A stretch of 64,000 bases of DNA, taken from positions 8,572-72,571 of the forward strand of contig JAZQGH010000121.1 of assembly GCA_045539925.1 (NCBI GenBank), given 5' to 3'. Origin of the DNA: Acutalibacteraceae bacterium (GTDB taxonomy: Bacteria; Bacillota; Clostridia; Oscillospirales; Acutalibacteraceae). Shown here one piece after another: positions 2,712 to 54,470 of this stretch. Position 1 is the first letter of the stretch, and every line of letters begins with the position of its first letter. Both the position numbers and the translations under genes were made by a program. The notes under the pieces were generated by a model. That model ran no database searches, was not told the DNA's origin, and saw only the letters and a program-made list of their open reading frames with translations.

Positions 2712-2718
2712 TGATTGA

Positions 2719-5033: not shown

Positions 5034-5053
5034 AAAACAGAAAGGAGAAGAAA

Positions 5054-31393: not shown

Positions 31394-31450
31394 AATGTAA
31401 ACCTTTCTTGTCATTTAGTCGGATTTGGCATACCCGACCTTGGTTTACGG

Positions 31451-32551: not shown

Positions 32552-32568
32552 AATATGTATTCCTTTTC

Positions 32569-35837: not shown

Positions 35838-35941
35838 ATTGCGCTCCTTTCTACCGTTATCCCAAGGGGAAAGGCGTGTTGTTTTTTGTGTTTTTGACAA
35901 CTATAGTTGTCATATTTGTCTTTTCAAGCCAAAACACGCGC

Positions 35942-38900
35942 TTATTTTTTGCGTTTAAAGACAAATCTTTGCACAAGGAAGCAGGCAAGAATGCTGAGGC
36001 CTGTGGGAAGAAATCCGAATGCCAGGGCATCCCAAATCGAATAAATATCGAAAATCATCCACTCAAAGATGTCGAGCTGAACAAACAGAAACATAGCAAA
36101 TTGCAGGAAAACAGCTCCCCAGATGAATCTGCCCGGCCACTTCGCAATTGGAAACAGCTTGCCTGAAATGCGTGAGTTTATAGCGAAGGGAATGATCGCA
36201 CTGAGCATGATCAAGACGTAATACTGAACAAAATCATAGCTCAATTCTATAAGCGGAAACAGTCCGGAAATAATACCGAATGCGGCGATTATGATCATGG
36301 CGATAATACCGACTATTTGCTTTGCAGTCGGCTTTTCCCTTACGCCAGCGAAGGCGACACTCTTCCTTACAAAGGGCTTTTGCCGAGCTTTTTGTGCTTT
36401 CTCGCGGCGGTTTTTCTTGCCGTCGGTATTTACGGAAGTATTTTTTGCAGAATGTGATACCTTTTTATTTTTCTCGGTCATCGTAGACTTTTTGCTTTCG
36501 GGAAGAGCAGTTTTTGCGGGGGTTACTTGTCTTGCAATTGTTTTTTCGCCCTGCTCGTCCCACGAGTTTCTTATCTTATCCCAAAAAGCAGACCTTGAGG
36601 CCTTTACAAAGGGGTCATTCTGGCTAAGATTATCAAAGAGGAGGATCTTTTTGGGAATGCCCAATGTGGTAGGATCGTTGACCAGATGAAGCTCGCCTCT
36701 TACCACGGAGTTCTTAAGCGTGGTTATCTTCAGGATTGAGACCATATTGTATGATATATTATAAAAGCAACCGTCAACACAGATAATAACATCGCGGCTC
36801 GACATAACAAAAGCATCATTATGTTTTTCAACCAGCTTGCCTTTAGTATACATTTCAAATGACCTGATGGCTTCATTTATGTTACCCGAACGATACCGGC
36901 ACTGACCCGCCTTAAATAAAGCAGTATTGCTTCTGGCAGAGATTGCCTTATAACATTTCAAGGCGTTGCCTGCGTCCTTTTTCTCCATATATGCATCGCC
37001 CATTTTTTCGATGCATTCGACAGTACGACCGTTAAGGTAATTTCCATTTACTTTATCTAATATACGAAGCGCCGCATCGTTATTTTTCTCATCGAAGCAC
37101 AATTGCAGAATGCCTTCTGCCAATTTATTATTATAGCTACCAAGGCGGTTGTACCAGATAAGAGCATTCTCGATATCTCTTTTATAGCAGTAAAGGGATA
37201 TCATTGTCTCTGCTGCGCGCGGATTTTTCTTTGTTTTCCAGCTTTTGGTTAACCATTTAACGGCTTCCTCGGATTGACCCTTGCTACGATAGAAGGAACC
37301 GATGGTCAGCATAAATTCGTCATCCTCTATCTCAACGCCTGCAACCTCGCACGCCTTAACAAAGGAATCCAAATTAAGATTCACGTTGGAATTAGAGGGG
37401 CGATCGATATTCTTCTGAACATCCGCGTAGCGTCCGTTCTTAGCATATGCGACCAACAGACAGAGCATATCCTTGATATATTCGTTTTTTGCTTGCGCAC
37501 CCCAATTTGAATTGGGATTTTTATGCTTAAGCTTGCTATCTAAGATTCTGATGGCCTCAAGTCCGCTGCCAACTCTTACACTCAAATCGCATATACGGGG
37601 CTCCAGATAACTCAGGTCCTTGGTGATGTACTTGATCATAGCATAATAGGAATATGCCTTTTTCTCTTCCCCTTTATCAAAATACCAATCTCCCAATCTG
37701 CAAATAATGGAAGTATCAGAATGAGCATTGCCGTCGATGTAACGGTCATACCATATTACAGCATCACCGCGCTTTCCGTTATTCCAGTAAATATGGCCGA
37801 TATCGAGTGCGACTCTCGGATTCTTTTCGGATTCCCATGCCCCGGCATACCAAACTATCGCATCGTCGAGCTTTCCGTTCTTTCGATAAATATTACCGAT
37901 CTCAAGCGCGGCGTTCGTATTCTTTTCAGATTCCCACGCTCTGCTATACCATTTAAGAGCCCTGTCATATTGCTCTGAAGAACGGTAACTTTCTGCCAGG
38001 ATCATTTCAAATCCGCGGTCGGAGCTCGACCACAGCTGCTCATAAAGGCGCTCTGCCTCGGTGTGGTTCTGATTTTCCAAATGATATCTGGCAATGATTT
38101 TAAGAAGGGGGACATTATCGGTATCCTTATCTGTCTCCGCCTTAATGCATATCTCTGCTACCTTATTGTCATTAACAGATTTGCATTTGGTAATGTAACC
38201 GATCATAAGCTTCTCAATGTCGGACCTGCGACCTGCCTTAAGGTACGAGTCCGCAACCGCAAATACTACCCTCGAGTATGCGCTGATCTCGCCTGGCGCA
38301 AGCTGGAGTTTATCATTGAGACTCAAATAGATCTCATAATATGGAATCGCTTCATTTTCTTTGCCGGTTGATGCGTAAAGATCGGCAAGGCGCAGGTTGA
38401 TATCAGCACTCTCGCCGGCCTTGGAAAGTCTATCATACCAAAGGACCGAATTTTCAAGATCACCCTTATCCAGATAATATTCAAGAATGCGCTCGATTAC
38501 CTTTTCGCTGAGCTTTTCATTCCCGTATTTCAGATACTCGCAAACAGCATCCTCCTTATGTCCCTTGGAATAAATAGCATCACCGAGCTTCATTGTCAGG
38601 CTCTTCAGCCTTGTCTTATATTCAGGTCCCTTGCCGCGAGCGATGTTCTCATCACGCTTTTTTTCATAAATGGGGATAATGCCTCTTATATCGCTCAAGC
38701 CTACGAGGTTGGGGGACTTTTTCTCAATTTCCTCAAAACAGCTTATGGCTTTTTCGGGATCGTTCTTTTTGTAATACTCCAGCAAGAATGAACACATTTC
38801 GTAGTTGTATTCCTCGCTGCAATACTCTGCGTAAAGCTCTTCGACAGCACCCGTATCGCCGCTGTTGTTATATATATTGCCAAGGAGAAGGTACCATACC

Positions 38901-39706
38901 TCTACAGCCTTAAGATCGCCTCTTTTTTTGTAGAGATCAATAACTGCGCGTGCGACAGATACCTTTTCTTCATCCGATAAGCAATTGTATTCTTTGTTTC
39001 GTGTGATGTTGCTGACAGCACGGACCCTTTCAATGCACTTATGCATTTTTTCTTCTGTGGTGCTATCGCTGTATTTAAGATAATAAATTAACGCCTCCAC
39101 GGGCTGATCGCAGGAGCAAAGAATATCTGCCATCTTGATGCCGAGCTCCTTATCTTCCTTGATGGAGAGAGCCTTTTTATATTGCTCTATAGCCTCGGAT
39201 CTCTTGCCTAGTGCCATATAGCAATCGCCCATGCCTGTTATTACGCGAGGGTCTGTATCCCGACTCTCACATTCGGAATAATGCCATAATGCTTCGTCGG
39301 GATCCTCAGAGGCAAGCATACCTGCAACGAAGATCCTCTGCTCATCCGAGAGAGGCTCTTTATCGGAGAACATATAGTTTTCCAATGCCATATCATCCTT
39401 AGAAAGCATACGATAGGCATCTCCGAGACGTGGAGCAGCACCATAGCTTTGCAGTCCCTCAAGCCAGCTTATGACATAGGTATAGCATTCGGAGTCGAAA
39501 AGCGTATTGGCAACCGAGAGTCTCTGCTTTACCGACAGAGAGCCAACGTCAGCATCCTCCGCATCGGTTGCAAGACGATAATACTCCGCCGCGCTCTTGA
39601 GATCATTTTCAGCACGGCATTCGTCGCCAAACTTAATATATCCGTCGAAGCCTATTTCGCCCTGCTCTGATGCTGCCGCGGCTTCGTTTTTCAAGATATC
39701 ATTCAT
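35942..39706 (-). CDS. giant Sel1/TPR-repeat protein (1254 aa) with C-terminal polytopic membrane anchor
   Basis: Many Sel1-like repeats (YSRAWESEKNTNAALEIGNIYRKNGKLDDAIVWYAGAWESEKNPRVALDIGHIY...). A basic linker, then ~5 hydrophobic helices at the C-terminus. GGAGG RBS. Confidence 0.7.
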   Translation of the reverse strand: MNDILKNEAAAASEQGEIGFDGYIKFGDECRAENDLKSAAEYYRLATDAEDADVGSLSVKQRLSVANTLFDSECYTYVISWLEGLQSYGAAPRLGDAYRMLSKDDMALENYMFSDKEPLSDEQRIFVAGMLASEDPDEALWHYSECESRDTDPRVITGMGDCYMALGKRSEAIEQYKKALSIKEDKELGIKMADILCSCDQPVEALIYYLKYSDSTTEEKMHKCIERVRAVSNITRNKEYNCLSDEEKVSVARAVIDLYKKRGDLKAVEVWYLLLGNIYNNSGDTGAVEELYAEYCSEEYNYEMCSFLLEYYKKNDPEKAISCFEEIEKKSPNLVGLSDIRGIIPIYEKKRDENIARGKGPEYKTRLKSLTMKLGDAIYSKGHKEDAVCEYLKYGNEKLSEKVIERILEYYLDKGDLENSVLWYDRLSKAGESADINLRLADLYASTGKENEAIPYYEIYLSLNDKLQLAPGEISAYSRVVFAVADSYLKAGRRSDIEKLMIGYITKCKSVNDNKVAEICIKAETDKDTDNVPLLKIIARYHLENQNHTEAERLYEQLWSSSDRGFEMILAESYRSSEQYDRALKWYSRAWESEKNTNAALEIGNIYRKNGKLDDAIVWYAGAWESEKNPRVALDIGHIYWNNGKRGDAVIWYDRYIDGNAHSDTSIICRLGDWYFDKGEEKKAYSYYAMIKYITKDLSYLEPRICDLSVRVGSGLEAIRILDSKLKHKNPNSNWGAQAKNEYIKDMLCLLVAYAKNGRYADVQKNIDRPSNSNVNLNLDSFVKACEVAGVEIEDDEFMLTIGSFYRSKGQSEEAVKWLTKSWKTKKNPRAAETMISLYCYKRDIENALIWYNRLGSYNNKLAEGILQLCFDEKNNDAALRILDKVNGNYLNGRTVECIEKMGDAYMEKKDAGNALKCYKAISARSNTALFKAGQCRYRSGNINEAIRSFEMYTKGKLVEKHNDAFVMSSRDVIICVDGCFYNISYNMVSILKITTLKNSVVRGELHLVNDPTTLGIPKKILLFDNLSQNDPFVKASRSAFWDKIRNSWDEQGEKTIARQVTPAKTALPESKKSTMTEKNKKVSHSAKNTSVNTDGKKNRREKAQKARQKPFVRKSVAFAGVREKPTAKQIVGIIAMIIIAAFGIISGLFPLIELSYDFVQYYVLIMLSAIIPFAINSRISGKLFPIAKWPGRFIWGAVFLQFAMFLFVQLDIFEWMIFDIYSIWDALAFGFLPTGLSILACFLVQRFVFKRKK

Positions 39707-39772: not shown

Positions 39773-42700
39773 TTATCTGCTCCTGCGAGCCTCGTTTCGT
39801 CTGTCGATCCATTTCTCCGCCCTCTCGGGGCTTTCTGTTCCCTTGTAATATCTGATCATATAATTAATGATTCCGGTATCTGTAAGTGAGCCCTCATCAG
39901 CGTATTTCTCATAGCATTCTACGGCTCTGACATCACCGCTTAAGCGATAGTAATTACCGAGATCGATAAGAAGCGAGACGTCGGGAAGTGTGCATCCGTA
40001 TTCGCTGTACCACGCGGAGAGCCTGTCCCATTTGTTGTATTCTCTGACATAGGAAATAATTCCCTCGGGAATTTTCTTGTACTCACCGCCACCGATAAGC
40101 TGCTCAAAAAGCCCGAAGGCTTCTTTGTTCCTGCCGCCTTTAATAAGCATTTCGCAGACGAATTCCAGCTTGTTAACGTCGGTAATGACGTCGAGGCACT
40201 TCATATACGTCTCAAAGGCCTTCTCATCCTCCTGCTCCTCCCGATAACAGTCTCCTATGCGCTCGGTTACGGTATCGTCATAGAAGAACTCGGTTGAGCA
40301 TTCAAGATAATTGGTGAGGGCGTCGGTATAATTTCCACGATCGTACCAGACGTCGGCAAGCTTTTTCTTTATTGAGGGGTCACCGGTCTCCTCTATGCAT
40401 TCCTTGTAAATCCTGATTGCGCCATCGACGTCATCGTTGGCATAATAGCAATCGGCTACTCTGCCTTTGAGCTTCGGATCGGTATCAACGTTTTTACATC
40501 TGCTGTAATACCCATAGGCCTCCCCGATCTTACCATCCTCAAGCAGATAGTCGGCTACTACTATCTTACGGTCATCGGGCAGCCTATCCGCCTCGACACC
40601 AAGATACTTTTCCACCGCCTCCTTACGCTTGCCGAGCATAAGATAACAGTCACCGCAATAAACGGCAGGCAAAATGTCCTCATCTGCTATTCTCTCAAAC
40701 CAGCTTATAGCCTCGGTGTAGTTCTTCTTATTCATATAATCCATACCCAACAGATAGCAGGGACGGTATTTATACATATTTTCCCTGTTGCTGCCATCCT
40801 TAGGCATGTAATCCTTGGCCAGAAGGAAATAATGAACCGCCTGCTTTTTATCCTCGACCTTGTCCGATTTACCATAGTAATTACCAAGATAAATGCAAGC
40901 ATTGAAGTTGGGATGCTTTTGAGACGCGGCCTTCGTATACCATTCCAGGGAGATCTTCTCATCCTGAGACTCGTAATAGCGCGCAAGCCTATACTGAGCA
41001 TCGGTATAATTGTTATCGGCGGACATCCTATAGTAGGCAAGGGCAATATCCATATTCTGCGTAAAGCCGATGCCTCTTTCATAATTAGACGCAAGTCTGT
41101 ACTGCGCCTTGCGGTCGCCCATATCGGCAGCCTTCTTAAGATAATCATTTGCAAGGACTATAAGATCCTCACTCTTTGTTTCCTTATATTGATTGAAATA
41201 GCTGTATCCCAGACTGCAGAATTCGGTGGCGCTTATGCTTCTGGACTTGTATTCCTTGATAAGCTCGCTGAGATTTACGTTGCTGTTAAGCTCGATCGCC
41301 TCGCTTACATCACGGTTCAGCAGATCCTCGTCCACGTATTTTGCAAAGCACATCTTGCCCTTGTAACCACCGTAGATCTGCTTCTTGTTGACAAGCTTAA
41401 AGCCCCAGGTCTTCTCAAAGCTCCTTACAAGGCTTTTCAGATGCTCTGCCTTTTTACTGAGCACATCCGCGCTGAAGGTGGGGTTATAATAATCGCGTAC
41501 AAAATGCTCAATATCTGCGGACATATCTATAATTCTCTCAAGCTGAGAATCAAGGATGATCTGGTCGTGCTTTTTTTCGTTAAGAGCGTGATTGAAGGCG
41601 TGCTTTGTCCAATATGTAAGCCCGTCTGTCTTTTTAAGATAAATACCGCAGGCCTCGAATTTTTCAAAGTTTTCGATATGACTGTCAATCTTAAGCGGCT
41701 TGATAGAATCAACGGCGCGGCACCTCTCAAACTCCTTATCAAAGGGAAGCATATATTTTATAAGAATGGTTTCCTTAAAGAGACTCTGATATTCCCATCT
41801 CTTGCTGTGTAGCTTAAGTCTGTCGATCTCCACACCATCCTTCAGCCTTGCAGAAAGCTGATCCATAGTCATACCCGTGGCGAGAAGCTTGTCTCTGTGC
41901 TCCTGCTGTGCATCTATAAGCTTGCAAAGCTGCAGGTATCTCTCATAAAATCTCTTGGGATGAGTGTTATTCAGAATGGCATTGATTGCCTTATCGTCTC
42001 GCTCTATCTTGCCGAGCCAACGCCTTACGTTACCCTCTATGCCCTGCTTCTCACCCGAGTATCGGCTTGCTATCTCCTCAAGATCCTCGGAGTCATATCT
42101 GCAGGGGTACTCCTCATCATATAAAATACGATACTCGTCAATATCGTTAAGCTGATCGTTGATGAGATCTATCAGCTCCTCTATCTCCCTTGAGGAACGT
42201 CCGGGCTGGTCGATTATTCCCTGTATTTTCTTCTCACGGAGTGTAAGGTTATCTATAAGCGCTTTCTTGGATGCGGTGCCGTCGTTGATAAGCCTGGATG
42301 CCATATTGCCCACCTCGGATGCCCAATCCTCGGAGCTCATAGAAACGGTAGGAATATCCCCCTTCTCGTCGGCCGCTTCGGTAACAAAGAGAAGCTTTTT
42401 TTCCTCCTCGGACTTCATCTCCGTATACTGCACCGTAAGGAAGCTCTTTTCCGCATCCTCTGCCGATTGACAGAAACAGATCATAAGGGAGGATGTACGC
42501 ATTGCAGCGAGAAGCTCGGGAGATGCATATGCAGTGCTGCCATTCAGACGGAAGGCCTCCACCGAGTACTGATCCATCTCGGTCATCTCATTGAGCAGAT
42601 CGATCGCCTGATCCTTGTATTTTCCCTCATATAGAATTACGACGTCGATCTCAGAGCTGTTTTCAAGAGCAGCATAGTATTTTTCAAGTGGGTCTGCTAC

Positions 42701-43162
42701 CTGCTCCTTTACGTCTCTGTAATCATTAAGAAGCTCATTTCTCTTTGTCGCATCGCCAATAGCCTTATACGTATCCTGAAGCTTTTCAAATATCTGATAT
42801 CCCTCAGAGGATTTCCAGGAATCCACGCTGTCATAGGCGTAATCATAGATAGCAATTCTGATATCCTCTTTTCCAAGCTCGAGAACGGCGTTGGAGTCGC
42901 ATTTAAGCTTCTCGGACACTAACAATAAATACTGCTCGGTGTCAGAGCCGCAGTCGGCGAGGATCTCAATAGCCTGAGACAGGTCAACGTCTGCAAAATT
43001 GCGAACAGCACGTCTGCCCATCGAGCGCTTGATAAGATCATCTGTCTTTTCAATAATGGCATACGCCGCGTCGGACATTTGCCTCAGATCGACGATCTGC
43101 TCCTCGTTCTCGACATCAGGACGTCTTATACCAATAATAGGTTCTGTCATCATTGCATCCAT
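39773..43162 (-). CDS. giant Sel1/TPR-repeat protein (1129 aa) with ~600-aa N-terminal domain of unknown function
   Basis: Sel1-like repeats in the C-terminal half (GDRKAQYRLASNYERGIGFTQNMDIALAYYRMSADNNYTDAQYRLARYYE). GAGGAG RBS. Confidence 0.7.
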   Translation of the reverse strand: MDAMMTEPIIGIRRPDVENEEQIVDLRQMSDAAYAIIEKTDDLIKRSMGRRAVRNFADVDLSQAIEILADCGSDTEQYLLLVSEKLKCDSNAVLELGKEDIRIAIYDYAYDSVDSWKSSEGYQIFEKLQDTYKAIGDATKRNELLNDYRDVKEQVADPLEKYYAALENSSEIDVVILYEGKYKDQAIDLLNEMTEMDQYSVEAFRLNGSTAYASPELLAAMRTSSLMICFCQSAEDAEKSFLTVQYTEMKSEEEKKLLFVTEAADEKGDIPTVSMSSEDWASEVGNMASRLINDGTASKKALIDNLTLREKKIQGIIDQPGRSSREIEELIDLINDQLNDIDEYRILYDEEYPCRYDSEDLEEIASRYSGEKQGIEGNVRRWLGKIERDDKAINAILNNTHPKRFYERYLQLCKLIDAQQEHRDKLLATGMTMDQLSARLKDGVEIDRLKLHSKRWEYQSLFKETILIKYMLPFDKEFERCRAVDSIKPLKIDSHIENFEKFEACGIYLKKTDGLTYWTKHAFNHALNEKKHDQIILDSQLERIIDMSADIEHFVRDYYNPTFSADVLSKKAEHLKSLVRSFEKTWGFKLVNKKQIYGGYKGKMCFAKYVDEDLLNRDVSEAIELNSNVNLSELIKEYKSRSISATEFCSLGYSYFNQYKETKSEDLIVLANDYLKKAADMGDRKAQYRLASNYERGIGFTQNMDIALAYYRMSADNNYTDAQYRLARYYESQDEKISLEWYTKAASQKHPNFNACIYLGNYYGKSDKVEDKKQAVHYFLLAKDYMPKDGSNRENMYKYRPCYLLGMDYMNKKNYTEAISWFERIADEDILPAVYCGDCYLMLGKRKEAVEKYLGVEADRLPDDRKIVVADYLLEDGKIGEAYGYYSRCKNVDTDPKLKGRVADCYYANDDVDGAIRIYKECIEETGDPSIKKKLADVWYDRGNYTDALTNYLECSTEFFYDDTVTERIGDCYREEQEDEKAFETYMKCLDVITDVNKLEFVCEMLIKGGRNKEAFGLFEQLIGGGEYKKIPEGIISYVREYNKWDRLSAWYSEYGCTLPDVSLLIDLGNYYRLSGDVRAVECYEKYADEGSLTDTGIINYMIRYYKGTESPERAEKWIDRRNEARRSR

Positions 43163-43189: not shown

Positions 43190-45103
43190 TTAGTCTGTCA
43201 CCTCCGCGGAAGCAACAAGTTGTACCTCATCTGCACAAGGGCCGTTATAATTTCTTCCCATCACGAAGGAAACCCTGGCACCGATTACAAATCCTTTGTC
43301 ATCTCCCTTTACCTGGAAATAAATACCTTTTTTATCCTGCGGCCTGTCGGGATTTCTGATAAATCCATATTTGCTCTCGGGGTTATATTTCATTATTACG
43401 CTCTCGCGTCCGGGCTTCTGCTTGCCGATAGGTGATACAGGCTTTGCCACCTCGGTCTTTACGGGCTGAGGCTTAGGCTCCGTATAGGCTTTGGCGGTGT
43501 CATCCGCCTTATCAAGATAAGCCTTGACATCATCAAGCGACTTGAATCTGATCTCGGGAATCCTGACGTAAAGTGCCTGAAGATCCTTTTCAAGCTTCCT
43601 TCCGTCTGAGAAGAAACGAGTGAGCTTGTCATCCGAGCCTGATTCCCTCTCGACAAAATTCTTGTCGATCCTGCCGTCCTCAAGCATTTTCAAAAGCATT
43701 TCATCTCTGGTGACGTAGTAGTTTTTGATTCCATCGGTCAGATCATACTGATCCACGCCCCATTCGTGAAGTTTTCTTGCATTTTCTCTGATTATTTCGG
43801 CATTCTTCTTTCTCTCGGCATCGCTCATTATGATTAACCTGTTTTCATTATGAATGAAGGCATTGGTGCTCGAGTAAATGCCCGCAAGCTCATCGTCATG
43901 TGCAGCAGGCTTTGACGATGCGAACTTCTGCTTCACCTTCTCTCCGGGGGAGAACAGGAGACCGTCGGTAAGCTTGATTCCCTTCTTGAATCGGCAATAC
44001 AGCTCAATGCAGGCGCGGATCTTAAGCTGTGCGGACTGAATATCCGCGGGATTTCTGGAAAGGTGATGCTCAACCTCCTTAACGATATCGCCGGTCGTAT
44101 CCCCACGAAGCGCAGAAAGATATGCGGTATTCGCAAGCAGCTCGTCAAGCTGCGCCTGATTTCTCTCCGCCTGCCTTTTCTGCTCGCCGCGAAGATCTTT
44201 TATAAGTCCCTCAAGATCGGTAATTTTTCTCATTACCTGAAGCATCGCCACGTTAAGCTCATCCTTCGGCATAGCCTTGACTGAGTCTTCATAATCCTTG
44301 GCATCGCTTCTGTAAAGTCTCTCGAGAAGAGTCTCCTCAATTGCCCTCCTGAAGTCGGTATCGTCGATCTCCGCCATAAATGGGCTGTCTGATACCTCCC
44401 CTGCAATTCTATCAATAGCCTCAAGCTCGGCGAACAGCTCGCCCTCCAGCTCCTTGTTCTCCATAACAAGATCGCTGTACTCATCGGCGCCCATGGTGAT
44501 TCCCGCCATAGCGCTCTCGGTGGACCGCCTTCTCTCAACCGCGCTGCTGATGGAGACGTTAGCCTTGTTCATTCTATGAAGCTTTGAAAGCTCGGATTTC
44601 TTATCCTTAAGACCGGACAAAAGTCCGCTGTGCTCGGATACAAGAGCCATATATCTTGCGGAGTCGGTGGGGTAATTGTTGATAATCCATTCCTCCTCTA
44701 TTGCCTTGATACGCTTCTCGGTCTCCTCTATCTCTGTGGTGATTCCCTTGATCTTAATACGGCCTTCCATAGCCTTATCCTTACCGGCCTCATAATCCGC
44801 GTCGAATTTGTTGCTTTCAAGAAGGTAGCTCCTTACGTGATCGTGAACTCGCTCGGCGTAGAGCTCGAAAGAATCGGGATTCTTCACCGCCTTGTTTATG
44901 TATTCCTGAATTCTTAAAAGCACATCCGAATAGTCGGAAAGAGTCTCATCGGTGGCAGAGCGAATAACGGCAATGTCCTCCTTAAGCATGCGAAGAGCGT
45001 TTACCGAAACATCGGTTATCTCAAGTCGCTCAACTATTTTGTCTGACGCTGTTTCTATATTGAGAACCATTTCTCTTACATCGGTCTTTGTCTTATTCCA
45101 CAT
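43190..45103 (-). CDS. coiled-coil protein (637 aa) with C-terminal cold-shock-like OB-fold domain
   Basis: About 560 aa of charged heptad-like sequence. Last ~65 aa match the CSD pattern (VIMKYNPESKYGFIRNPD...KGIYFQVKG...GARVSFVMGRNYNGPCADEV, compare VKWFNxxKGFGFI...VFVHFS...G..V.F). AGGGAG RBS. Confidence 0.6.
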   Translation of the reverse strand: MWNKTKTDVREMVLNIETASDKIVERLEITDVSVNALRMLKEDIAVIRSATDETLSDYSDVLLRIQEYINKAVKNPDSFELYAERVHDHVRSYLLESNKFDADYEAGKDKAMEGRIKIKGITTEIEETEKRIKAIEEEWIINNYPTDSARYMALVSEHSGLLSGLKDKKSELSKLHRMNKANVSISSAVERRRSTESAMAGITMGADEYSDLVMENKELEGELFAELEAIDRIAGEVSDSPFMAEIDDTDFRRAIEETLLERLYRSDAKDYEDSVKAMPKDELNVAMLQVMRKITDLEGLIKDLRGEQKRQAERNQAQLDELLANTAYLSALRGDTTGDIVKEVEHHLSRNPADIQSAQLKIRACIELYCRFKKGIKLTDGLLFSPGEKVKQKFASSKPAAHDDELAGIYSSTNAFIHNENRLIIMSDAERKKNAEIIRENARKLHEWGVDQYDLTDGIKNYYVTRDEMLLKMLEDGRIDKNFVERESGSDDKLTRFFSDGRKLEKDLQALYVRIPEIRFKSLDDVKAYLDKADDTAKAYTEPKPQPVKTEVAKPVSPIGKQKPGRESVIMKYNPESKYGFIRNPDRPQDKKGIYFQVKGDDKGFVIGARVSFVMGRNYNGPCADEVQLVASAEVTD

Positions 45104-45115
45104 GATGATACTCCC

Positions 45116-45676
45116 TTAAAACTTAAATCTGTGTTTATTTAGTTGCTTTGGCTGCTGAGTCTGATTGCTTGCAACCTTTGTCTTTATATCCACTCTATCA
45201 ATCAGCATTCCAAGATCCTTGATAAAATGCTCGCGGAAGAAGATCATAAGCTCCCTCTCGAGCAGCTCGCATGCATTGCCGCCGAAGAATGCAGCCTCGT
45301 TGGTAATGGATCTGTCGGCGAGAAATTTGGTTATTAGGTTTGTAGCCGCCGTCATACCTTCCCATTCAAGGATCAGATCGGGCATTTTTGCCTTAAGCAG
45401 ACGACTGTTATTAATAACGATAGTCGGAAAAGCAACGTGTGCGATCACCAAAAAGGTGAAGGAGATATTACCGCGATCGTAGAAAAGCTCGAAGCTGTTC
45501 TCGCCCTCGTCTACAAAATACCACTCTGCACCCTCGTGGGAAAGCGGATAAGTGCCTCCACCCCTTATAAGGCCACTCACGCGTCCGTTCTCAACCGAGA
45601 CAAGCAATTCGTTGTTGTCAAGCTTGAAGGAGGCTCTGTTTTTTGGAATTTTGTAAGCGATCTTCGAGTTTCTCAT
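45116..45676 (-). CDS. hypothetical protein (186 aa)
   Basis: ORF with a GAGGAG RBS. No motif recognised. Confidence 0.5.
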   Translation of the reverse strand: MRNSKIAYKIPKNRASFKLDNNELLVSVENGRVSGLIRGGGTYPLSHEGAEWYFVDEGENSFELFYDRGNISFTFLVIAHVAFPTIVINNSRLLKAKMPDLILEWEGMTAATNLITKFLADRSITNEAAFFGGNACELLERELMIFFREHFIKDLGMLIDRVDIKTKVASNQTQQPKQLNKHRFKF

Positions 45677-45770: not shown

Positions 45771-46907
45771 TTAGAGCTGTCCTGCTCTATAGCGCTCTAT
45801 TCCGGCGAGATCCTCCGCTCTTACCGAGCTTCTTGTGTGGCTCAGCACGCTTGCAACGTCATCATTAGTGATAAGCTCGGCGCCGCCTTCACCTATGATT
45901 CGCTCAATGGCCCGATCCTTCATTCTCTCGCAGGCATTGACTATATCCGCTCCGCTGAAGCCATCCGTCTTTTCGACGATCATTTCTATATCCAGATCGG
46001 CAGCACTGGGAACCTTGGATATCACCGAGTCGATTATCGCCCGCCTTGCCGCAGCGTCGGGCAGAGGAATATGAACTGAAATGCTGAACCTTCCGGGACG
46101 GAGGAAGGCGGAATCGATATCCCAGGGACGGTTGGTGGCGGCAATTACTATCAGGGTGTTCTCACTCTCCTCGGCGTTCTGAATTCCTACCAGAAGCTCG
46201 GGGATTATTCGCTTCATTGATGAGGAGTCGGTGTCGCGCTTAGTGCCGAGAGCATCAAACTCATCGAAGAAAATTACCGACGTCTTATGCTTTGCTGCCT
46301 CATCAAAGAGCGCCTTCACGTTCTGCTCTGCCTCGCCAAACCATTTAGATAGGATGTCAGAGCATTTCACCTGAAAAAAGCTGGCGCCAAGCTCGTTTGC
46401 AATGGCGTTTGCGATCATGGTTTTGCCCGTTCCGGGAACTCCGTAGAGGAGAATTCCGGCATTTTTCTTTTTCTTGAATTTTTCATAGATCTCGGGATGC
46501 TGTCTGGGATAAATCGCAAGCCGCCTTATCTCCTCCTTCACCTCATCGAGGCCGATAACGTCATCGAAGGTTATTCGCTTTGCATCTGTGGTAGCAAATC
46601 CCGACTCCTCGCTCTCCCCTGCCTCCGACTGAGAGCTTTGCTCCTCGCTTTCCTCGTTAAGCTCGGGCGCATTTATCTCGCCGACCTTCATCTCGACAGC
46701 CTCAGCGAGGGCGATCATCTCATCGGCTCTCGAAATCATTTTAGCCCTTGCCTCGCCCCTCAGCTCCTTGGCAATGAGAATGGCGTTTTCCGCCGTGGAA
46801 TAGAAATATTTGATCGCTCTCTCGGGCTTGCCGCCGTTCAGCGAACGAATTCCGCTGTCATAGTAGGTGTTAAAAAGCTCGTATAGAAATTTCAGACTGT
46901 CACTCAT
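45771..46907 (-). CDS. Vps4-like AAA+ ATPase with N-terminal MIT-like domain
   Basis: MIT-like three-helix N-terminus (AIKYFYSTAENAILIAKELRGEARAKMISRADEMIALAEAV). Acidic linker. Walker A GVPGTGKT, Walker B VIFFDEFD, SRH ATNRPWDIDSAFLRPGRF. AGGAGG RBS. Start overlaps the stop of the upstream gene. Confidence 0.8.
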   Translation of the reverse strand: MSDSLKFLYELFNTYYDSGIRSLNGGKPERAIKYFYSTAENAILIAKELRGEARAKMISRADEMIALAEAVEMKVGEINAPELNEESEEQSSQSEAGESEESGFATTDAKRITFDDVIGLDEVKEEIRRLAIYPRQHPEIYEKFKKKKNAGILLYGVPGTGKTMIANAIANELGASFFQVKCSDILSKWFGEAEQNVKALFDEAAKHKTSVIFFDEFDALGTKRDTDSSSMKRIIPELLVGIQNAEESENTLIVIAATNRPWDIDSAFLRPGRFSISVHIPLPDAAARRAIIDSVISKVPSAADLDIEMIVEKTDGFSGADIVNACERMKDRAIERIIGEGGAELITNDDVASVLSHTRSSVRAEDLAGIERYRAGQL

Positions 46908-47491
46908 ACTCCCGCCTCCTTTATCCTGCTCCTTATGAGCTGTATTTTTGCATCCAGCGCCGCGCCGTCTGTGTCCTTGTCGCTATCACCGATCATCTGC
47001 TCAAGCTCGCTATCGAGAGCCACGTCCTCACCCGCATAGCCCAGCCGATTAAGCGAAAGATCCTCGTAAAGAGTGTTGTAAAAATCAATGGTTCGCTCCA
47101 CGCCGCCCATTGCCTCCTTGTAGTTTTTTAACAGGGTGTGGGGGTTGCCTGCGATCGAATGCTGCTTTTTCAGGGCATCCATACAGGAGCTGTAGCTCTC
47201 TACCATTCTATCCATATTATCAAGCTGTAGGGCGATCTCAAGCTGAGTAAGCATTTCGGAAACGAGCCTTGTGTTTACAAGACATACAGAAAGCCTCTTC
47301 TTAAGCGACCTGTATGCATCCTCATCGCCTCTGTCCTTCGCCTTTCTTGCCAGCGAGATGATCTTGTTTTTCTCCCTTTCAAGCTGCTCGATGGAATACT
47401 CCATCATTCCGATGGTTCGGAAAACCTGATATCGGATATTTCTCTTGTCATCCTTCGCGGGTCTCCCATCGTCTCTTGTGCTTTTAAGCAT
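46904..47491 (-). CDS. Snf7/ESCRT-III-family protein (195 aa)
   Basis: Basic N-terminal helices similar to CHMP2/Vps2 (EQLEREKNKIISLARKAKDRGDEDAYRSLKKRL versus KLETQEKKIIADIKKMAKQGQMDAVRIMAKDL). Acidic C-terminal half. Terminal amphipathic helix ALDAKIQLIRSRI in the MIM position. AAGGAGGA RBS. First gene of the operon. Confidence 0.65.
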   Translation of the reverse strand: MLKSTRDDGRPAKDDKRNIRYQVFRTIGMMEYSIEQLEREKNKIISLARKAKDRGDEDAYRSLKKRLSVCLVNTRLVSEMLTQLEIALQLDNMDRMVESYSSCMDALKKQHSIAGNPHTLLKNYKEAMGGVERTIDFYNTLYEDLSLNRLGYAGEDVALDSELEQMIGDSDKDTDGAALDAKIQLIRSRIKEAGV

Positions 47492-47783
47492 GCTTTTTTC
47501 CTCCTTGATCTGCTGATTTCCGGTCGTTGTTTTCGTTTTTTACATCCTTATTATAACACGCAAAAGCGGAACATTGTTATGTCTGCTTTCAAAAATACTT
47601 TGTTCCGTTTTAAGGGTTTTTCTTGTGTTTTTCTTTGTTTTGTGTTCCTCTAAAAAGAACAAATCAGCCATTTTGCCGAAAATTTATGAAAATTCAGCAC
47701 TTTTTAAATTATTTTGTTCCGTTTATCTTTACTTTTACGGAAAAAGATGCTATAATAAGTTCATATTTTAAAGGAGGGCTGAT
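47492..47783. promoter_or_regulatory. divergent promoter region with three copies of a GTTCCG(C/T)TT motif
   Basis: Minus-strand extended -10 TGtTATAAT (~47544-47552) for the ESCRT operon, with an inverted motif copy CGGAAC at the -35 position (~47563-47570). Direct copies TTGTTCCGTTT at ~47592 and ~47716. Plus-strand -10 TATAAT at ~47746 and RBS AAAGGAGGG for the divergent WYL gene. Confidence 0.4.
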
Positions 47784-48878
47784 ATGGGATTCTTTATTAA
47801 TGAAATAACCTATGAGCTGAAGCAGCATCTCAACCTTTCGGAGGGCGCGTGGGATGTGATCTATAACGATATGAACAGCTTCTTCGGTGAGGCGGGAAAG
47901 CAATCCTTCTCGGGCTTTCTCAACCGTGTGTTCTATAATTTCTATCAGCAGGCCGAGGGTAGCGTTAGGCTGCAGGGCGAGAGGCTGAAGGAGGAGCTTA
48001 AGGCTCTTGTTAATAGAAACGGTGAGATTTTCCGAGACGAAGAGGGCGCAGGGCAGACGGTCAGGCTGCTGGTAGATGAATATGAAAAAAGAGCCCTGAA
48101 GAAGGCTACCTCCTATCCCAAGGGAATAGGCAAAAAGTTCAGGGTGAACAGGCAGAATCTTGACGTGCTGAGAGACCTGGACTGTGCGGATATGTACGAC
48201 GACTCTATCGGCGCATATATGAAGGCGGTGTTTGAGGAATATACCACCCTTCCTCAGGCGAAGAGAGAGGCAATATTCTTCAAGGACACCATAGATGCCT
48301 GCAATTTCGCTATCTCAAAGCGCAACAAGCTGAAGATCAGCCTGAGTCAGAGGTTCTCCGCAAGGAGGCAGGAAAGCTATACCAGGCGGTTTTACGTTTC
48401 GCCATACGCGGTGGTGGTGGATAAAAACGGCTTTTTCAACTACCTTATAGGCATATCCGAGGAGATCCGCCGAGACGGTACGCTTGACGAGAAAAGGATC
48501 ACCAGCTTCCGTATTTCGAGAATCGAAAAGATCTCGATCATGAGCAGTATGAGTGGATTTTTATCAAGTCAGAAAATCGACGAAATAGAATGCGAGCTTA
48601 AGACAAAATCGCCCCAATATATGGCGGGTGAGATATCTGAGATCGAGGTGCTGTTTACAGCTAAGGGTCTGGAGCTTTTCGAGCGCCAGTTATATTTACG
48701 GCCTACCGTATACACGAAAATCGGTACAAACCGCTATTTATTCCATTGCACCGAGATGCAGGCAATACACTATTTTTTCAAGTTCGGTCGTGACGCGCAG
48801 ATAGTAAGCCCGACTCATCTGAGGGAGAGATTTATCAGCTATTACAGAGAGGCTCTGGCGGCCTACGAAAAGGAATAA
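47784..48878 (+). CDS. WYL-WCX domain protein (364 aa), divergent from the ESCRT-like operon
   Basis: WYL-like core RRFYVSPYAVVVDKNGFFNYLIGI...EKRITSFRISRIEKI. WCX-like C-terminus FKFGRDAQIVSPTHLRERF. The N-terminal 200 aa are not an obvious HTH. Confidence 0.6.
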   Translation: MGFFINEITYELKQHLNLSEGAWDVIYNDMNSFFGEAGKQSFSGFLNRVFYNFYQQAEGSVRLQGERLKEELKALVNRNGEIFRDEEGAGQTVRLLVDEYEKRALKKATSYPKGIGKKFRVNRQNLDVLRDLDCADMYDDSIGAYMKAVFEEYTTLPQAKREAIFFKDTIDACNFAISKRNKLKISLSQRFSARRQESYTRRFYVSPYAVVVDKNGFFNYLIGISEEIRRDGTLDEKRITSFRISRIEKISIMSSMSGFLSSQKIDEIECELKTKSPQYMAGEISEIEVLFTAKGLELFERQLYLRPTVYTKIGTNRYLFHCTEMQAIHYFFKFGRDAQIVSPTHLRERFISYYREALAAYEKE

Positions 48879-54111: not shown

Positions 54112-54470
54112 TACTAGATCTCCTTGTATGAATAAATTAATAAAAAGCTTCATCAAAATGCAAAAAATCCCGTCACAAATAAATGTAAAAGGGGATTTTC
54201 TTAAAAATAACTATAATACTAATTAAGTATAACACAAAATATTGTATAAATCAAGTATTATTTAACTAAATATGTAAATATATGTAAAATATATAAAAAG
54301 CCCCGACTTGAATGAGCCGGGGCCGGATGTTTTAGAATATATTTATTAAGCATAGCCGCGAAATCTGCAATTTCACCAGGCCAATTACCGTGACTCCACA
54401 TCGACTACGGGACCTTCGTTGCTTCATCTGTTGCAAGCTCGTAAGCAAGGCCGGTTATCAAAAGCTTTTC

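What the first reader, a model, noticed from the sequence alone, without database searches (positions are those of the whole stretch)
45771..47491. Snf7/ESCRT-III-like protein translationally coupled to a Vps4-like MIT-AAA ATPase in a bacterial genome
- **ESCRT-III-like protein.** The 195-aa product of 46904..47491 aligns by eye to CHMP2/Vps2-type ESCRT-III subunits. Compare EQLEREKNKIISLARKAKDRGDEDAYRSLKKRL with KLETQEKKIIADIKKMAKQGQMDAVRIMAKDL. It shows the same charge asymmetry, basic N-half and acidic C-half. It ends in an amphipathic Leu/Arg helix where MIT-interacting motifs sit.
- **Vps4-like ATPase.** The next gene overlaps it by ATGA and encodes an AAA ATPase. Its N-terminus looks like a MIT three-helix bundle, followed by an acidic linker and a single AAA cassette. 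That is the Vps4/katanin/spastin architecture.
- **Why it matters.** MIT-MIM recognition is how Vps4 disassembles ESCRT-III polymers in eukaryotes and in the archaeal Cdv system. A dedicated ESCRT-III plus Vps4 pair is not part of the standard Firmicutes gene set. Bacteria normally carry only the distant PspA/Vipp1 branch, without a Vps4 partner. This pair is either a horizontally acquired archaeal-type module or a little-studied bacterial lineage.
Basis: partly seen in the sequence, partly recalled or inferred. Interest (0 to 1): 0.85.

Follow-up and report, generated by a model that had tools for sequence, protein, structure and literature searches.

The report
Bacterial ESCRT-III-like protein with partner ATPase
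A gut Clostridia-type bacterium carries a membrane-remodelling-type (ESCRT-III, Snf7/CHMP branch) protein coupled to its own AAA ATPase, a pairing that recent reviews say is confined to archaea and eukaryotes; the ATPase is not a true Vps4, and its N-terminal domain could not be shown to be a MIT domain.

Summary
**Observation: confirmed.**
- Two minus-strand genes overlap by ATGA: 46904-47491 (195 aa, "S") and 45771-46907 (378 aa, "V").

**S is a real ESCRT-III-superfamily protein of the Snf7/CHMP branch, not the PspA branch.**
- Its family matches a eukaryotic ESCRT-III profile at 89% probability (E 2e-6). The PspA/Vipp1 profile gives 6%, and a reversed-sequence control gives 0.4%.
- The top 19 Foldseek hits of its AlphaFold model are all ESCRT-III-superfamily proteins.
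- Relatives give sub-threshold Pfam Snf7 hits.
- The tail carries a conserved motif matching the core of the MIM1 consensus as I recall it.

**V looks like Vps4 in architecture only.**
- It has a predicted three-helix N-domain, an acidic linker and one complete classical AAA cassette.
- It fails every Vps4/CdvC membership threshold.
- It scores about equally against the CDC48, CdvC, PAN and FtsH models.
- The MIT assignment is unproven (hhalign probability 18%, P 0.001).

**The pairing is conserved.**
- The N-domain sits on the ATPase beside an S-family gene in every locus inspected, even where the ATPase is of a different type.
- At least 110 protein clusters carry this N-domain. Named sources are Eubacteriales/Clostridia MAGs and a Mollicute.

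**Reading.** This is most likely an undescribed bacterial ESCRT-III plus dedicated remodelling-ATPase module, not a recent archaeal import. Its physiological role is unknown.

The parts
46904..47491 (-). S: 195-aa ESCRT-III-like protein (Snf7/CHMP branch)
   Evidence: ORF. AF2 model pLDDT 81 with five helices. Foldseek top 19 hits are all ESCRT-III-superfamily proteins. hhalign 89% against eukaryotic ESCRT-III and 6% against PspA/Vipp1.
46976..47458 (-). S core, residues 12-172: long alpha1/alpha2(-3) hairpin, alpha4 and alpha5
   Evidence: Helices H12-53, H57-112, H118-147 and H156-172. Residues 20-125 align to CHMP2A 19-124.
46913..46972 (-). S C-terminal amphipathic helix, residues 174-193, with MIM1-like motif LDAKIQLIR (179-187)
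   Evidence: H174-193. Column conservation across 53 sequences. Motif found in 24/53 tails against 0.4 in shuffled tails.
45771..46907 (-). V: 378-aa classical-clade AAA+ ATPase; start codon overlaps the S stop codon (ATGA)
   Evidence: ORF. Overlap and ribosome-binding site. Pfam AAA 1.4e-41 and AAA_lid_3. NCBIfam CDC48, CdvC, PAN and FtsH all score about 183-196 bits.
46674..46907 (-). V N-domain, residues 1-78: predicted three-helix domain, MIT-like by architecture only
   Evidence: Helices 3-24, 28-47 and 51-78 (low confidence). Present in 110 of the 120 best homologue clusters. hhalign against MIT 17-18%, P 0.0013-0.0015. No Pfam MIT hit.
46584..46673 (-). V acidic, low-complexity linker, residues 79-108
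   Evidence: Sequence INAPELNEESEEQSSQSEAGESEESGFATT. pLDDT below 35.
45774..46583 (-). V AAA cassette plus lid and C-terminal helices, residues 109-378
   Evidence: Read from the sequence: Walker A GVPGTGKT, Walker B IFFDEFD, pore loop SKWFG, ATNRPWDIDSAFLRPGRF. Family-wide motif counts. Vps4_C only 15.6 bits against a 21.3 cut-off.
47784..48878 (+). Divergent WYL/WCX-type putative regulator (364 aa), conserved next to the S-V pair
   Evidence: PADLOC WYL 2.8e-14. Pfam WCX 3.6e-4, sub-threshold. Homologous gene next to the S-V pair (divergently transcribed in most loci, same strand in L015) in L001, L003, L014, L015 and L016, and a WCX-type gene in L018.
47492..47783 (.). Divergent intergenic region between S and the WYL gene (presumed promoters/operator)
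   Evidence: Sequence with AAGGAGG ribosome-binding site before S. Promoter-like matches are not above chance.
45116..45676 (-). 186-aa protein of unknown fold, conserved third gene in the close lineage
   Evidence: Orthologues follow V in L001, L003 and L016. No significant Pfam, PADLOC, PHROG or PDB match (best: Pfam DUF7435, E 0.004, sub-threshold).
43190..45103 (-). 637-aa coiled-coil protein with C-terminal cold-shock-like OB domain (residues ~567-630)
   Evidence: Profile against PDB: all 16 hits are cold-shock proteins, best CspA at E 0.006. Weak CSD hits in Pfam, PADLOC and NCBIfam. Orthologues in L001 and L016.
39773..43162 (-). 1129-aa Sel1/TPR repeat protein
   Evidence: Pfam Sel1 8.8e-17 and TPR. 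Orthologue in L001.
35942..39706 (-). 1254-aa TPR repeat protein
   Evidence: Pfam TPR_8 1.5e-23. Orthologue in L001. A 2127-aa TPR protein sits at the same position in L016.

Best explanation
S and V form a bacterial ESCRT-III-type module.

**Shown**
- S is a soluble helical protein of the Snf7/CHMP branch of the ESCRT-III superfamily.
- It has a basic N-terminal half and an acidic C-terminal half.
- Its C-terminal amphipathic helix carries a conserved MIM1-like motif.
- V is a single-cassette classical AAA+ ATPase with intact Walker A and B motifs, an aromatic pore loop (SKWFG), an RPGRF motif at the Arg-finger position, and a family-specific N-terminal domain predicted as three helices.
- S-family genes and N-domain ATPase genes are adjacent and conserved, and often translationally coupled.

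**Inferred**
- S polymerises, probably on the inner face of the membrane.
- V assembles into a hexamer and uses its N-domain to dock on the exposed C-terminal helix of S.
- V then threads S through its pore to remodel or disassemble the polymer, as Vps4 does with ESCRT-III.
- V is a functional analogue of Vps4, not an orthologue.

**Wider unit**
- The pair is part of a larger unit controlled by a divergent WYL-type regulator.

**Physiological role (speculative)**
- The role is not established.
- Partner genes in other lineages include SPFH proteins, a TIR-TPR membrane protein, a BrxL-like protein, a protease, and kinases with vWA proteins.
- Together with the WYL regulators, these make a stress- or phage-triggered membrane remodelling or repair function the best guess.
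For: **S belongs to the ESCRT-III superfamily**
- A 4-sequence profile of S finds 59 relatives among 1.84 billion representatives. Seven of 61 hit Pfam Snf7 (best E 5.7e-6) and none hits PspA_IM30 at E<=0.01.
- Subfamily consensus sequences have Snf7 as their top Pfam family (E 8e-5 and 2e-4), covering nearly the whole model.
- hhalign links:
  - The close family against the two distant subfamilies gives 99.6% and 99.2%.
  - Those subfamilies against a eukaryotic ESCRT-III profile, validated, give 92% and 88%.
  - The whole family gives 89% (E 2e-6).
  - The reversed-sequence control gives 0.4%, and PspA/Vipp1 (validated) gives 0.2-6%.
- The AF2 model has pLDDT 81. Its top 19 Foldseek PDB hits are all ESCRT-III-superfamily proteins, led by Asgard ESCRT-IIIB and CHMP2A.

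**Tail motif**
- The core pattern is present in the last 25 residues of 24/53 members, against 0.4±0.6 in shuffled tails. Only 2 occurrences lie elsewhere in these proteins.
- Column conservation at all six consensus positions is shown.

**V is an intact ATPase**
- Motifs are read from the sequence and counted across 110 homologues.

**Linkage of S and V**
- An S-family gene lies next to an N-domain ATPase gene in the window, L001, L003, L004, L005, L009-L016 and L018.
- In L005 the same N-domain sits on a SpoVK/CbbX-type ATPase.
- S-like domains occur fused to an AAA start (P0056) and to FtsK-type ATPases.
Against: - The window protein itself has no Pfam Snf7 hit.
- Its close family alone reaches only 3.6% probability against ESCRT-III, so the assignment is transitive.
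- All Snf7 hits are below Pfam's gathering score.
- The N-domain has no significant match to MIT: Pfam gives none, and the best PDB profile hits are 2jpu at E 0.015 and a chitin-synthase chain (2mpk, a MIT domain as I recall) at E 0.42.
- No complex model could be made, so the N-domain-to-tail interaction is pure inference.
- The window's S lacks the N-terminal MGLF-type motif seen in distant relatives, so membrane binding is untested.
- Polymerisation, membrane binding and ATP-driven disassembly are all untested.
Confidence: 0.6

Rival explanations
1. S regulates or adapts V rather than being its substrate, as PspA binds and inhibits the AAA+ protein PspF. The real clients of V would be other products of the operon, such as the giant TPR/Sel1 proteins or the cold-shock-domain protein.
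For: The large TPR/Sel1 proteins and the cold-shock-domain protein are co-directional and conserved in the close lineage. An ESCRT-III-superfamily protein regulating an AAA+ protein has a precedent in PspA-PspF (review PMC7619361).
Against: The downstream genes differ completely between lineages, while the S plus N-domain ATPase pair stays constant. V is an unfoldase-type classical AAA with an aromatic pore loop and is not a PspF-type transcription activator: the Pfam Sigma54_activat match is only E 0.0055, below its cut-off. The conserved exposed tail motif fits substrate recruitment.
Confidence: 0.15
2. S is an ordinary coiled-coil protein and V a generic AAA chaperone, for example of an IetA-like defence system. 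The ESCRT-III resemblance would be an artefact of helical-hairpin composition.
Against: The reversed-sequence control drops from 89% to 0.4%. The alignment spans 104-152 columns in a consistent register. Foldseek's top 19 hits are exclusively ESCRT-III-superfamily proteins. Snf7 is the top Pfam family for two subfamily consensus sequences. The IetA match covers only the generic AAA cassette (V 67-334), and no IetS-type protease is present.
Confidence: 0.12
3. The pair is a recently transferred archaeal CdvB/CdvC (ESCRT-III/Vps4) module.
For: The gene order (ESCRT-III gene next to an N-domain AAA gene) mimics cdvB-cdvC. The CdvC model aligns over almost its whole length, 63-358 of 370.
Against: The CdvC score of 189.5 bits is far below its 650 cut-off and equals the CDC48, PAN and FtsH scores. 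V has RPGRF where those Vps4 sequences have RRRFE. At least 110 homologue clusters carry the bacterial-type N-domain, and every source name available is bacterial. The region's GC content is unremarkable.
Confidence: 0.03
4. S is a divergent PspA/Vipp1-type phage-shock protein, the usual bacterial branch of the superfamily.
For: PspA and Vipp1 structures appear among the Foldseek hits at ranks 5, 7 and 11-13. SPFH genes, which are known PspA partners (papers), lie nearby in the window, in L003 (translation, my reading) and in L013.
Against: hhalign against a validated PspA/Vipp1 profile gives 0.2-6%, against 88-92% for the eukaryotic ESCRT-III profile. No member hits Pfam PspA_IM30 at E<=0.01. 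Snf7/CHMP-type structures rank above PspA and Vipp1.
Confidence: 0.05

Closest known systems
Eukaryotic and Asgard ESCRT-III (Vps2/CHMP2, CHMP1, CHMP3, ESCRT-IIIB) with Vps4
   Same: - About 200 aa, with a five-to-six-helix layout.
- Basic N-terminal half and acidic C-terminal half.
- C-terminal helix matching the MIM1 core.
- Profile-profile homology at 88-92%.
[quoted passage not shown]
   Different: - S scores below Pfam's Snf7 threshold.
- The window protein lacks the N-terminal MGLF-type motif.
- The ATPase is not a Vps4 orthologue: RPGRF where the typed Vps4 sequences have RRRFE, Vps4_C sub-threshold.
- The N-domain is not detectably MIT by sequence.
- No ESCRT-I or ESCRT-II components were seen.
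- The module has a WYL-type regulator and TPR/Sel1 partners.
Archaeal Cdv system (CdvB/CdvC)
   Same: [quoted passage not shown] The CdvC model aligns across V residues 70-367.
   Different: - No CdvA-like gene was seen nearby, and S is a single helical domain with nothing after its tail.
- The CdvC equivalog score is 189.5 bits against a 650 cut-off.
- The host is bacterial.
Bacterial PspA/Vipp1 systems (PspA-PspF; PspA with YdjGHI/SPFH)
   Same: Same superfamily, bacterial host, nearby SPFH genes, and association with an AAA+ protein.
   Different: - S lies on the Snf7/CHMP side of the superfamily.
- The partner is a classical unfoldase-type AAA, not the sigma-54 activator PspF.
- The window protein has no PspA-type N-terminal amphipathic helix.
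Bacterial cases in Ravi et al. 2024 (PMC11237479): (1) Vps4-like ATPases transferred to bacteria with snf7 replaced by a TPR+6TM protein; (2) PspA or membrane-anchored Snf7 with a two-domain AAA
   Same: Bacterial association of ESCRT-III-superfamily or TPR proteins with classical AAA ATPases.
   Different: - Here a soluble Snf7-like protein is retained.
- It is paired with a single-cassette AAA carrying a distinct N-domain and a WYL regulator.
- The lineages are Bacillati (Clostridia, Mollicutes), which that paper does not list for the Vps4-like transfer.

Membership tests
ESCRT-III, Snf7/CHMP branch (Pfam PF03357 Snf7) | Match to the Snf7 profile at or above Pfam's gathering score (27.3 bits) | tested here: not met
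   The window protein has no hit. Seven of 61 relatives hit at best E 5.7e-6. Subfamily consensus sequences score 21.4 and 22.9 bits.
ESCRT-III, Snf7/CHMP branch (Pfam PF03357 Snf7) | Remote homology to bona fide ESCRT-III over the helical core | tested here: met
   hhalign gives 89% (E 2e-6) for the whole family and 92%/88% for the subfamilies, over 104-152 columns. The reversed control gives 0.4%. The reference profile was validated against PDB.
ESCRT-III, Snf7/CHMP branch (Pfam PF03357 Snf7) | Fold: long alpha1-alpha2 hairpin followed by shorter helices and a C-terminal tail helix | tested here: met
ESCRT-III, Snf7/CHMP branch (Pfam PF03357 Snf7) | Basic N-terminal half and acidic C-terminal half | tested here: met
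   +5 (pI 9.3) against -7 (pI 4.5). Family means are +6.8 and -9.8.
ESCRT-III, Snf7/CHMP branch (Pfam PF03357 Snf7) | Polymerisation into membrane-bound filaments | not testable with these tools
   Needs purified protein, EM and liposomes.
ESCRT-III, Snf7/CHMP branch (Pfam PF03357 Snf7) | N-terminal membrane-insertion motif (MGLF-type) | tested here: inconclusive
   Many distant family members start with MGLF(K), M(D)LFG or a related LF motif. The window protein and its close relatives start MLKSTRDD....
PspA/Vipp1 (Pfam PF04012) | Profile similarity to PspA/Vipp1 | tested here: not met
   No PspA_IM30 hit in 61 members at E<=0.01. hhalign 0.2-6%.
Vps4/CdvC (meiotic-clade AAA ATPases) | N-terminal MIT domain (Pfam PF04212) | tested here: inconclusive
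   No Pfam MIT hit at E<=10. hhalign against a validated MIT profile gives 17-18% and P 0.0013-0.0015 over up to 63 columns, with controls at P 0.19-0.62. PDB profile search: a chitin-synthase chain (2mpk, a MIT domain as I recall) at E 0.42. Three helices of MIT-like length appear only in a low-confidence model.
Vps4/CdvC (meiotic-clade AAA ATPases) | Family-level score (NCBIfam NF041006 CdvC, cut-off 650 bits) | tested here: not met
   189.5 bits. CDC48 scores 196.2, PAN 187.5 and FtsH 183.3.
Vps4/CdvC (meiotic-clade AAA ATPases) | Vps4 C-terminal oligomerisation domain (PF09336, cut-off 21.3 bits) | tested here: not met
   15.6 bits, E 0.016.
Vps4/CdvC (meiotic-clade AAA ATPases) | Meiotic-clade second region of homology (RRRF/RRRL type, not RPGRF).
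   V has LRPGRF, found in 106 of 110 family members. The typed Vps4A and yeast Vps4 have RRRFE(K/R)R. Only their N-terminal parts were validated against PDB.
Vps4/CdvC (meiotic-clade AAA ATPases) | Single active AAA cassette with an aromatic pore loop | tested here: met
   GVPGTGKT, IFFDEFD, SKWFG and RPGRF read from the sequence. Pfam AAA 1.4e-41. Family-wide counts.
Vps4/CdvC (meiotic-clade AAA ATPases) | Encoded next to ESCRT-III genes whose tails carry MIM motifs | tested here: met
   Adjacent in all loci inspected. MIM1-like core in 24/53 tails.
IetAS anti-phage system (PADLOC IetA) | IetA ATPase together with an IetS subtilisin-like protease | tested here: not met
   The IetA model matches only the generic AAA region, V 67-334, at 7.8e-44. 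No protease domain was found among the nearby gene products that were scanned.

The most novel reading that the evidence does not exclude
Bacillati (Clostridia, Mollicutes and relatives) have a genuine ESCRT-III/Vps4-type machine of their own. It consists of a Snf7/CHMP-branch filament protein whose MIM1-type tail is read by a MIT-like three-helix domain on a dedicated AAA unfoldase. That ATPase either evolved independently of archaeal Vps4 or diverged from it very early. If so, the ESCRT-III plus disassembly-ATPase principle is not confined to archaea and eukaryotes. In bacteria it would be wired into WYL-controlled, TPR/SPFH/TIR-associated stress or defence modules.
Probability: 0.45. Interest if true: 0.9.

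Novelty: new variant of a known kind. Interest (0 to 1): 0.78.

Why it matters
**What current syntheses say**
[quoted passage not shown] 2024, PMC10936438).
- A Vps4-like ATPase appears absent in bacteria (PMC7619361).

**What this module would change**
- A conserved bacterial Snf7-branch protein with its own N-domain AAA partner would revise that picture.
- It would offer a simple two-gene bacterial model for ESCRT-III remodelling.
- It bears on whether ATPase-driven turnover of ESCRT-III arose once or repeatedly.

**Possible link to defence**
- In other lineages the pair sits with WYL regulators, SPFH proteins, TIR-TPR and BrxL-like genes, proteases and kinases.
- This hints at an unexplored link between membrane remodelling and bacterial stress or anti-phage responses.

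Tried and rejected
**Searches that found nothing or too little**
- Direct Pfam, NCBIfam, PADLOC, PHROG and PDB sequence searches with S gave nothing meaningful.
- A word-indexed homologue search found only 3 relatives of S and 1 of the N-domain. The latter search was wasted.
With the close family it returned only 2 genome loci, 1 metagenome locus and 0 viral contigs.
- tblastn of S and of a subfamily consensus against the plasmid and phage collections found no match.
- Four literature searches found no description of this bacterial module.

**Structure work that led nowhere**
- A single-sequence AF2 run of V was a poor use of one of two jobs: pLDDT 45. Its Foldseek search returned only AAA hits and said nothing about the N-domain.
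- AFDB50 was not available.

**Negative or inconclusive tests**
- N-domain profiles against PDB and Pfam found no MIT. The best hit, 2jpu (E 0.015), covers only helices 1-2.
- I tested whether the 186-aa protein is SPFH-like or homologous to the third genes of distant loci. hhalign was negative, and a profile search against PDB found nothing.

**Ideas considered and dropped**
- I first took the 659-aa proteins labelled "transitional ER ATPase" (P0065-P0072) as evidence for Cdc48 ancestry. They are tandem duplications of the V-type cassette behind the same N-domain, so I dropped that reading.
- Archaeal transfer, a PspA identity for S, and an IetAS defence system were considered and rejected. 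The reasons are given under the rival explanations and the membership tests.
Full report
**1. Observation**

  - S is 47491..46904 (195 aa). V is 46907..45771 (378 aa).
- The stop codon of S and the start codon of V overlap as ATGA. A Shine-Dalgarno-like AAAGGAGG lies 9-10 nt upstream of the V start, inside S.
- S has its own AAGGAGG ribosome-binding site. A 292-bp divergent intergenic region separates it from a WYL/WCX-type gene at 47784-48878.
- The genes that follow V run in the same direction:
  - a 186-aa ORF;
  - a 637-aa coiled-coil protein;
  - a 1129-aa Sel1/TPR protein;
  - a 1254-aa TPR protein;
  - a second WYL protein;
  - further on, an SPFH/Band_7 gene and RtcB.
- The rest of the window carries sugar-utilisation genes, a two-component system and serine recombinases. 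The closest related contigs are Eubacteriales MAGs from gut or faecal samples.

**2. What S is**

*Direct searches and homologue collection*
- Direct library searches fail. There is no Pfam, NCBIfam, PADLOC or PHROG family and no meaningful PDB sequence hit.
- A profile of S and its three closest relatives, run against 1.84 billion representative proteins, returned 59 hits with E<=1e-3 and 16 with E<=1e-10.
- Most hits are about 190-230 aa long.

*Pfam evidence from relatives*
- Seven of the 61 collected proteins match Pfam Snf7 (best E 5.7e-6). None matches PspA_IM30 at E<=0.01.
- Consensus sequences of the two distant subfamilies have Snf7 as their top Pfam family.
  - E values are 2e-4 and 8e-5, covering positions 1-163 and 6-155 of the 171-position model.
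  - Scores of 21-23 bits remain below the 27.3-bit gathering score.

*Profile-profile comparison*

- The ESCRT-III profile retrieves only Snf7, CHMP1-4, Vps24, Shrub and Asgard ESCRT-IIIB.
- The PspA/Vipp1 profile retrieves only PspA, Vipp1 and IM30.

| Comparison | Probability | E-value |
|---|---|---|
| S family (53 seqs) vs ESCRT-III | 88.7-89.2% | 2e-6 |
| S family vs PspA/Vipp1 | 6% | 6e-3 |
| Reversed S family vs ESCRT-III | 0.4% | 0.14 |
| Close family alone vs ESCRT-III | 3.6% | 0.012 |
| Close family vs distant subfamilies | 99.6% / 99.2% | 9e-24 / 1e-19 |
| Distant subfamilies vs ESCRT-III | 92% / 88% | 5.5e-7 / 2.9e-6 |
| Eukaryotic ESCRT-III vs PspA/Vipp1 (benchmark) | 4.2% | 0.0099 |

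- The assignment of the window protein is therefore transitive but statistically solid.
- The benchmark uses two groups accepted as remote homologues. S is much closer to the Snf7/CHMP side than PspA is.

*Structure*
- An AF2 model built with the 53-sequence alignment has mean pLDDT 81. Its helices are 12-53, 57-112, 118-147, 156-172 and 174-193.
- The top 19 Foldseek hits against PDB are all ESCRT-III-superfamily chains.
  - They include Asgard ESCRT-IIIB, CHMP2A, CHMP3, Vipp1, CHMP1B, PspA, Loki CHMP4-7, Shrub, Snf7 and Vps24.
  - E-values are weak (best 3.8e-3), as expected for proteins that change conformation.

**3. The tail of S**

- Charge asymmetry is confirmed: +5 for the N-terminal part and -7 for the C-terminal part.
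- Family columns equivalent to window residues 176, 179, 182, 183, 186 and 187 are conserved as D/N, I/L, K/R, I/L, I/L/V and K/R.
- This is the MIM1 consensus (D/E)xxLxxRLxxL(K/R) as I know it from the Vps4 MIT-CHMP literature. That consensus rests on my own knowledge.
- The C-termini of the validated CHMP2A, CHMP1B and CHMP3 sequences fit the same core pattern.
- The core pattern occurs in the last 25 residues of 24/53 members, including the window protein (LDAKIQLIR).
  - Shuffled tails give 0.4±0.6.
  - Only 2 occurrences lie anywhere else in these proteins.
- Upstream lies a conserved (S/T)D(E/D)E(I/L)(D/E)x(L/M/I)I segment, which resembles the alpha5 region of CHMPs by eye.

**4. What V is**

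*ATPase cassette*
- V has one complete classical AAA cassette (Pfam AAA 1.4e-41, AAA_lid_3 1e-9).
- The motifs GVPGTGKT, IFFDEFD, SKWFG and ATNRPWDIDSAFLRPGRF are read from the sequence.

*Family placement*
- V does not belong to any named family. All scores fall far below the curated cut-offs:

| NCBIfam model | Score (bits) |
|---|---|
| CDC48 | 196 |
| CdvC | 189.5 (cut-off 650) |
| PAN | 187.5 |
| FtsH | 183 |

- Vps4_C is sub-threshold at 15.6 bits against 21.3.
- Against archaeal CDC48 domains it scores 158-202 bits, at 37-44% identity.
- The family has RPGRF (106/110 members) where those Vps4 sequences have RRRFE. It does share the SKWxG pore loop with Vps4 (92/110).

*N-domain*
- Residues 1-78 form a conserved, gap-free family domain. 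Its consensus is roughly ..rLLYDAFNiYYekG.eAL......A.RN...AaEtLLKLAK.S.G.lK.qR.KRAeEL..LA..IE.K.
- It is present in 110 of the 120 best homologue clusters.
- A low-confidence single-sequence model predicts three helices: 3-24, 28-47 and 51-78.
- Sequence tests for MIT are negative or marginal.
  - There is no Pfam MIT hit even at E<=10.
  - Profile searches of PDB hit 2jpu (E 0.015, helices 1-2 only) and a chitin-synthase chain, 2mpk, at E 0.42. I recall 2mpk as a MIT domain.
  - hhalign against a MIT profile gives 17-18% probability and P 0.0013-0.0015, over up to 63 columns in the expected register. Reversed and unrelated controls give P 0.19-0.62.
  - That MIT profile retrieves Vps4, spastin, CdvC, MITD1, calpain-7, ULK3 and spartin from PDB.
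- I therefore call the N-domain MIT-like by architecture only.

**5. Genomic linkage**

An S-family gene lies next to an ATPase carrying this N-domain in every locus that could be inspected.
- Window, L001 and L003.
- L009 to L012, which are short contigs.
- L016 and L018.
- L015.
- L014, from the Mollicute Liberiplasma polymorphum.
- L013.
- L005.
- L004, which has three S-like paralogues and two ATPases.

Three further points bear on the linkage.
- **L005 swaps the ATPase.** Its ATPase body is of the SpoVK/CbbX type (AAA_lid_6), yet it carries the same N-domain at 98.6 bits. The N-domain, not the ATPase body, tracks with S. This is what one expects of a recruitment domain.
- **Fusions exist.** S-like domains are fused to FtsK/SpoIIIE-type ATPases (P0042, P0050, P0051). 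In a partial Clostridia protein (P0056) the S-like domain joins the start of an AAA cassette through a Pro-rich linker.
- **A regulator travels with the pair.** A homologous WYL/WCX regulator gene lies next to it in seven loci, mostly divergently transcribed.

Downstream genes vary by lineage.
- Here and in L001 and L016: the 186-aa protein, the coiled-coil protein with a cold-shock-like C-terminal domain, and giant TPR/Sel1 proteins. For the cold-shock-like domain, all 16 PDB profile hits are cold-shock proteins, best E 0.006.
- L015: Ser/Thr kinases, vWA, LRR and Sel1 proteins.
- L013: an integrase, a Band_7_1 protein, a BrxL-like protein and a TIR-TPR membrane protein.
- L004: a trypsin-like protease.

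No relatives were found in the viral contig, phage or plasmid collections.

**6. Mechanism**

*Shown*
- S has ESCRT-III-type sequence and predicted fold, plus a conserved MIM1-like tail.
- V is an intact unfoldase-type AAA with a dedicated N-domain.
- The two genes are tightly and widely linked.

*Inferred*
- S polymerises, probably on membrane.
- The V N-domain binds the S tail.
- The V hexamer extracts S subunits through its pore and turns the polymer over, as Vps4 does.

*Speculative*
- The module serves stress- or phage-triggered membrane remodelling or repair under WYL control.

*Main rival*
- S may regulate V, as PspA regulates PspF, with other operon proteins as the clients of V.

**7. 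Comparison with what is known, and novelty**

- Ravi et al. 2024 describe two kinds of bacterial case (PMC11237479):
  - PspA or membrane-anchored Snf7 with a two-domain AAA.
- Neither matches the module found here.
- Four literature searches found no description of it, and the few source annotations available call these proteins hypothetical or give generic ATPase labels.
- I classify it as a new variant of a known kind. It works like an ESCRT-III/Vps4 pair, but only S passes a homology test. V is an analogue that fails Vps4/CdvC membership.

**8. Limits**

- The MIT question and the N-domain-to-tail interaction remain open.
  - The first three sets were validated as profiles against PDB.
  - The AAA parts of the typed Vps4 sequences were not independently validated.
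- The taxonomy of most family members is unknown, because they come from unnamed metagenome contigs.

Noticed in passing
window 3501-8246 (+), within the low-GC stretch 1-8000: Three tandem ~510-aa ORFs. The first is a large serine recombinase (Resolvase, Recombinase and Zn_ribbon_recom domains). GC is 35-39% here against about 45% elsewhere, which suggests an integrated mobile element.
   Followed up: partly
window 30185-33186 (-): An SPFH/Band_7 protein (373 aa) overlaps a 205-aa ORF by 4 bases and is followed by RtcB. All lie on the same strand as the S-V cluster. SPFH proteins also sit beside S-V modules in L003 and L013, and are known partners of PspA and of archaeal ESCRT systems.
   Followed up: partly
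L013 2637-12938 (GCA_965333775.1): An island next to a phage-type integrase with this gene order: Band_7_1 plus zinc ribbon, a 126-aa gene, an MGLF-type 207-aa gene that I suspect is an ESCRT-III-like paralogue (neither the S-family HMM nor Pfam Snf7 matched it), the S-family protein P0030, a 497-aa N-domain AAA, a BrxL-like ATPase, and a 1169-aa protein with TIR_2, TPR and a predicted TM region. It looks like a defence island.
   Followed up: partly
L005 747-1868: The same N-terminal domain as in V (98.6 bits) is fused to a SpoVK/CbbX-type ATPase (AAA_lid_6) rather than a classical AAA. The gene directly follows an S-family gene and is followed by double-zinc-ribbon proteins.
   Followed up: yes
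P0042, P0050, P0051; L017 8001-11127: The ESCRT-III-like domain is fused to an FtsK/SpoIIIE-type ATPase. In L017 this gene lies between der-plsY and MatE-spoIVA in a spore-former, and is followed by a 187-aa gene and a 355-aa AAA. This hints at a housekeeping or sporulation-related membrane role in that lineage.
   Followed up: partly
P0065-P0072 (658-661 aa): Variants with the V-type N-domain followed by two tandem V-like AAA cassettes. JGI labels them 'transitional endoplasmic reticulum ATPase', but they are internal duplications of this family.
   Followed up: yes
window 43190-45103 (-), residues ~567-630: The 637-aa coiled-coil protein ends in a cold-shock-like OB domain. All 16 PDB profile hits are cold-shock proteins (best E 0.006). 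There are also weak matches to PADLOC CSD_V and to the retron Se72 effector. It could be a nucleic-acid sensor.
   Followed up: partly
L004 1-4931: A high-GC contig with an XRE-type HTH gene, an N-domain-like AAA, three ~200-aa helical genes (one is an S-family member, P0022; one matches the S-family HMM at 61 bits; the third matched neither that HMM nor Snf7), a trypsin-like protease with a helical N-terminus, and a second N-domain AAA.
   Followed up: partly
L014 8635-11161 (Liberiplasma polymorphum, Mollicutes): A proteasome/HslV-like 204-aa gene lies directly upstream of the S-V pair in a Mollicute (a class I know as wall-less). The WYL-type regulator is also present.
   Followed up: no
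window 49717-54156 (-): A 1479-aa predicted secreted protein with repeated Cys-rich segments (CTEAG...C.DCG) and no Pfam family on record for its L001 orthologue. It is syntenic with L001.
   Followed up: no
window 34581-35900 (-): A second WYL-domain protein (439 aa; Pfam WYL E 2.2e-4, just below the gathering score) lies inside the co-directional cluster. Its 3' end overlaps the start of the next ORF (303 aa) by 4 bases.
   Followed up: no
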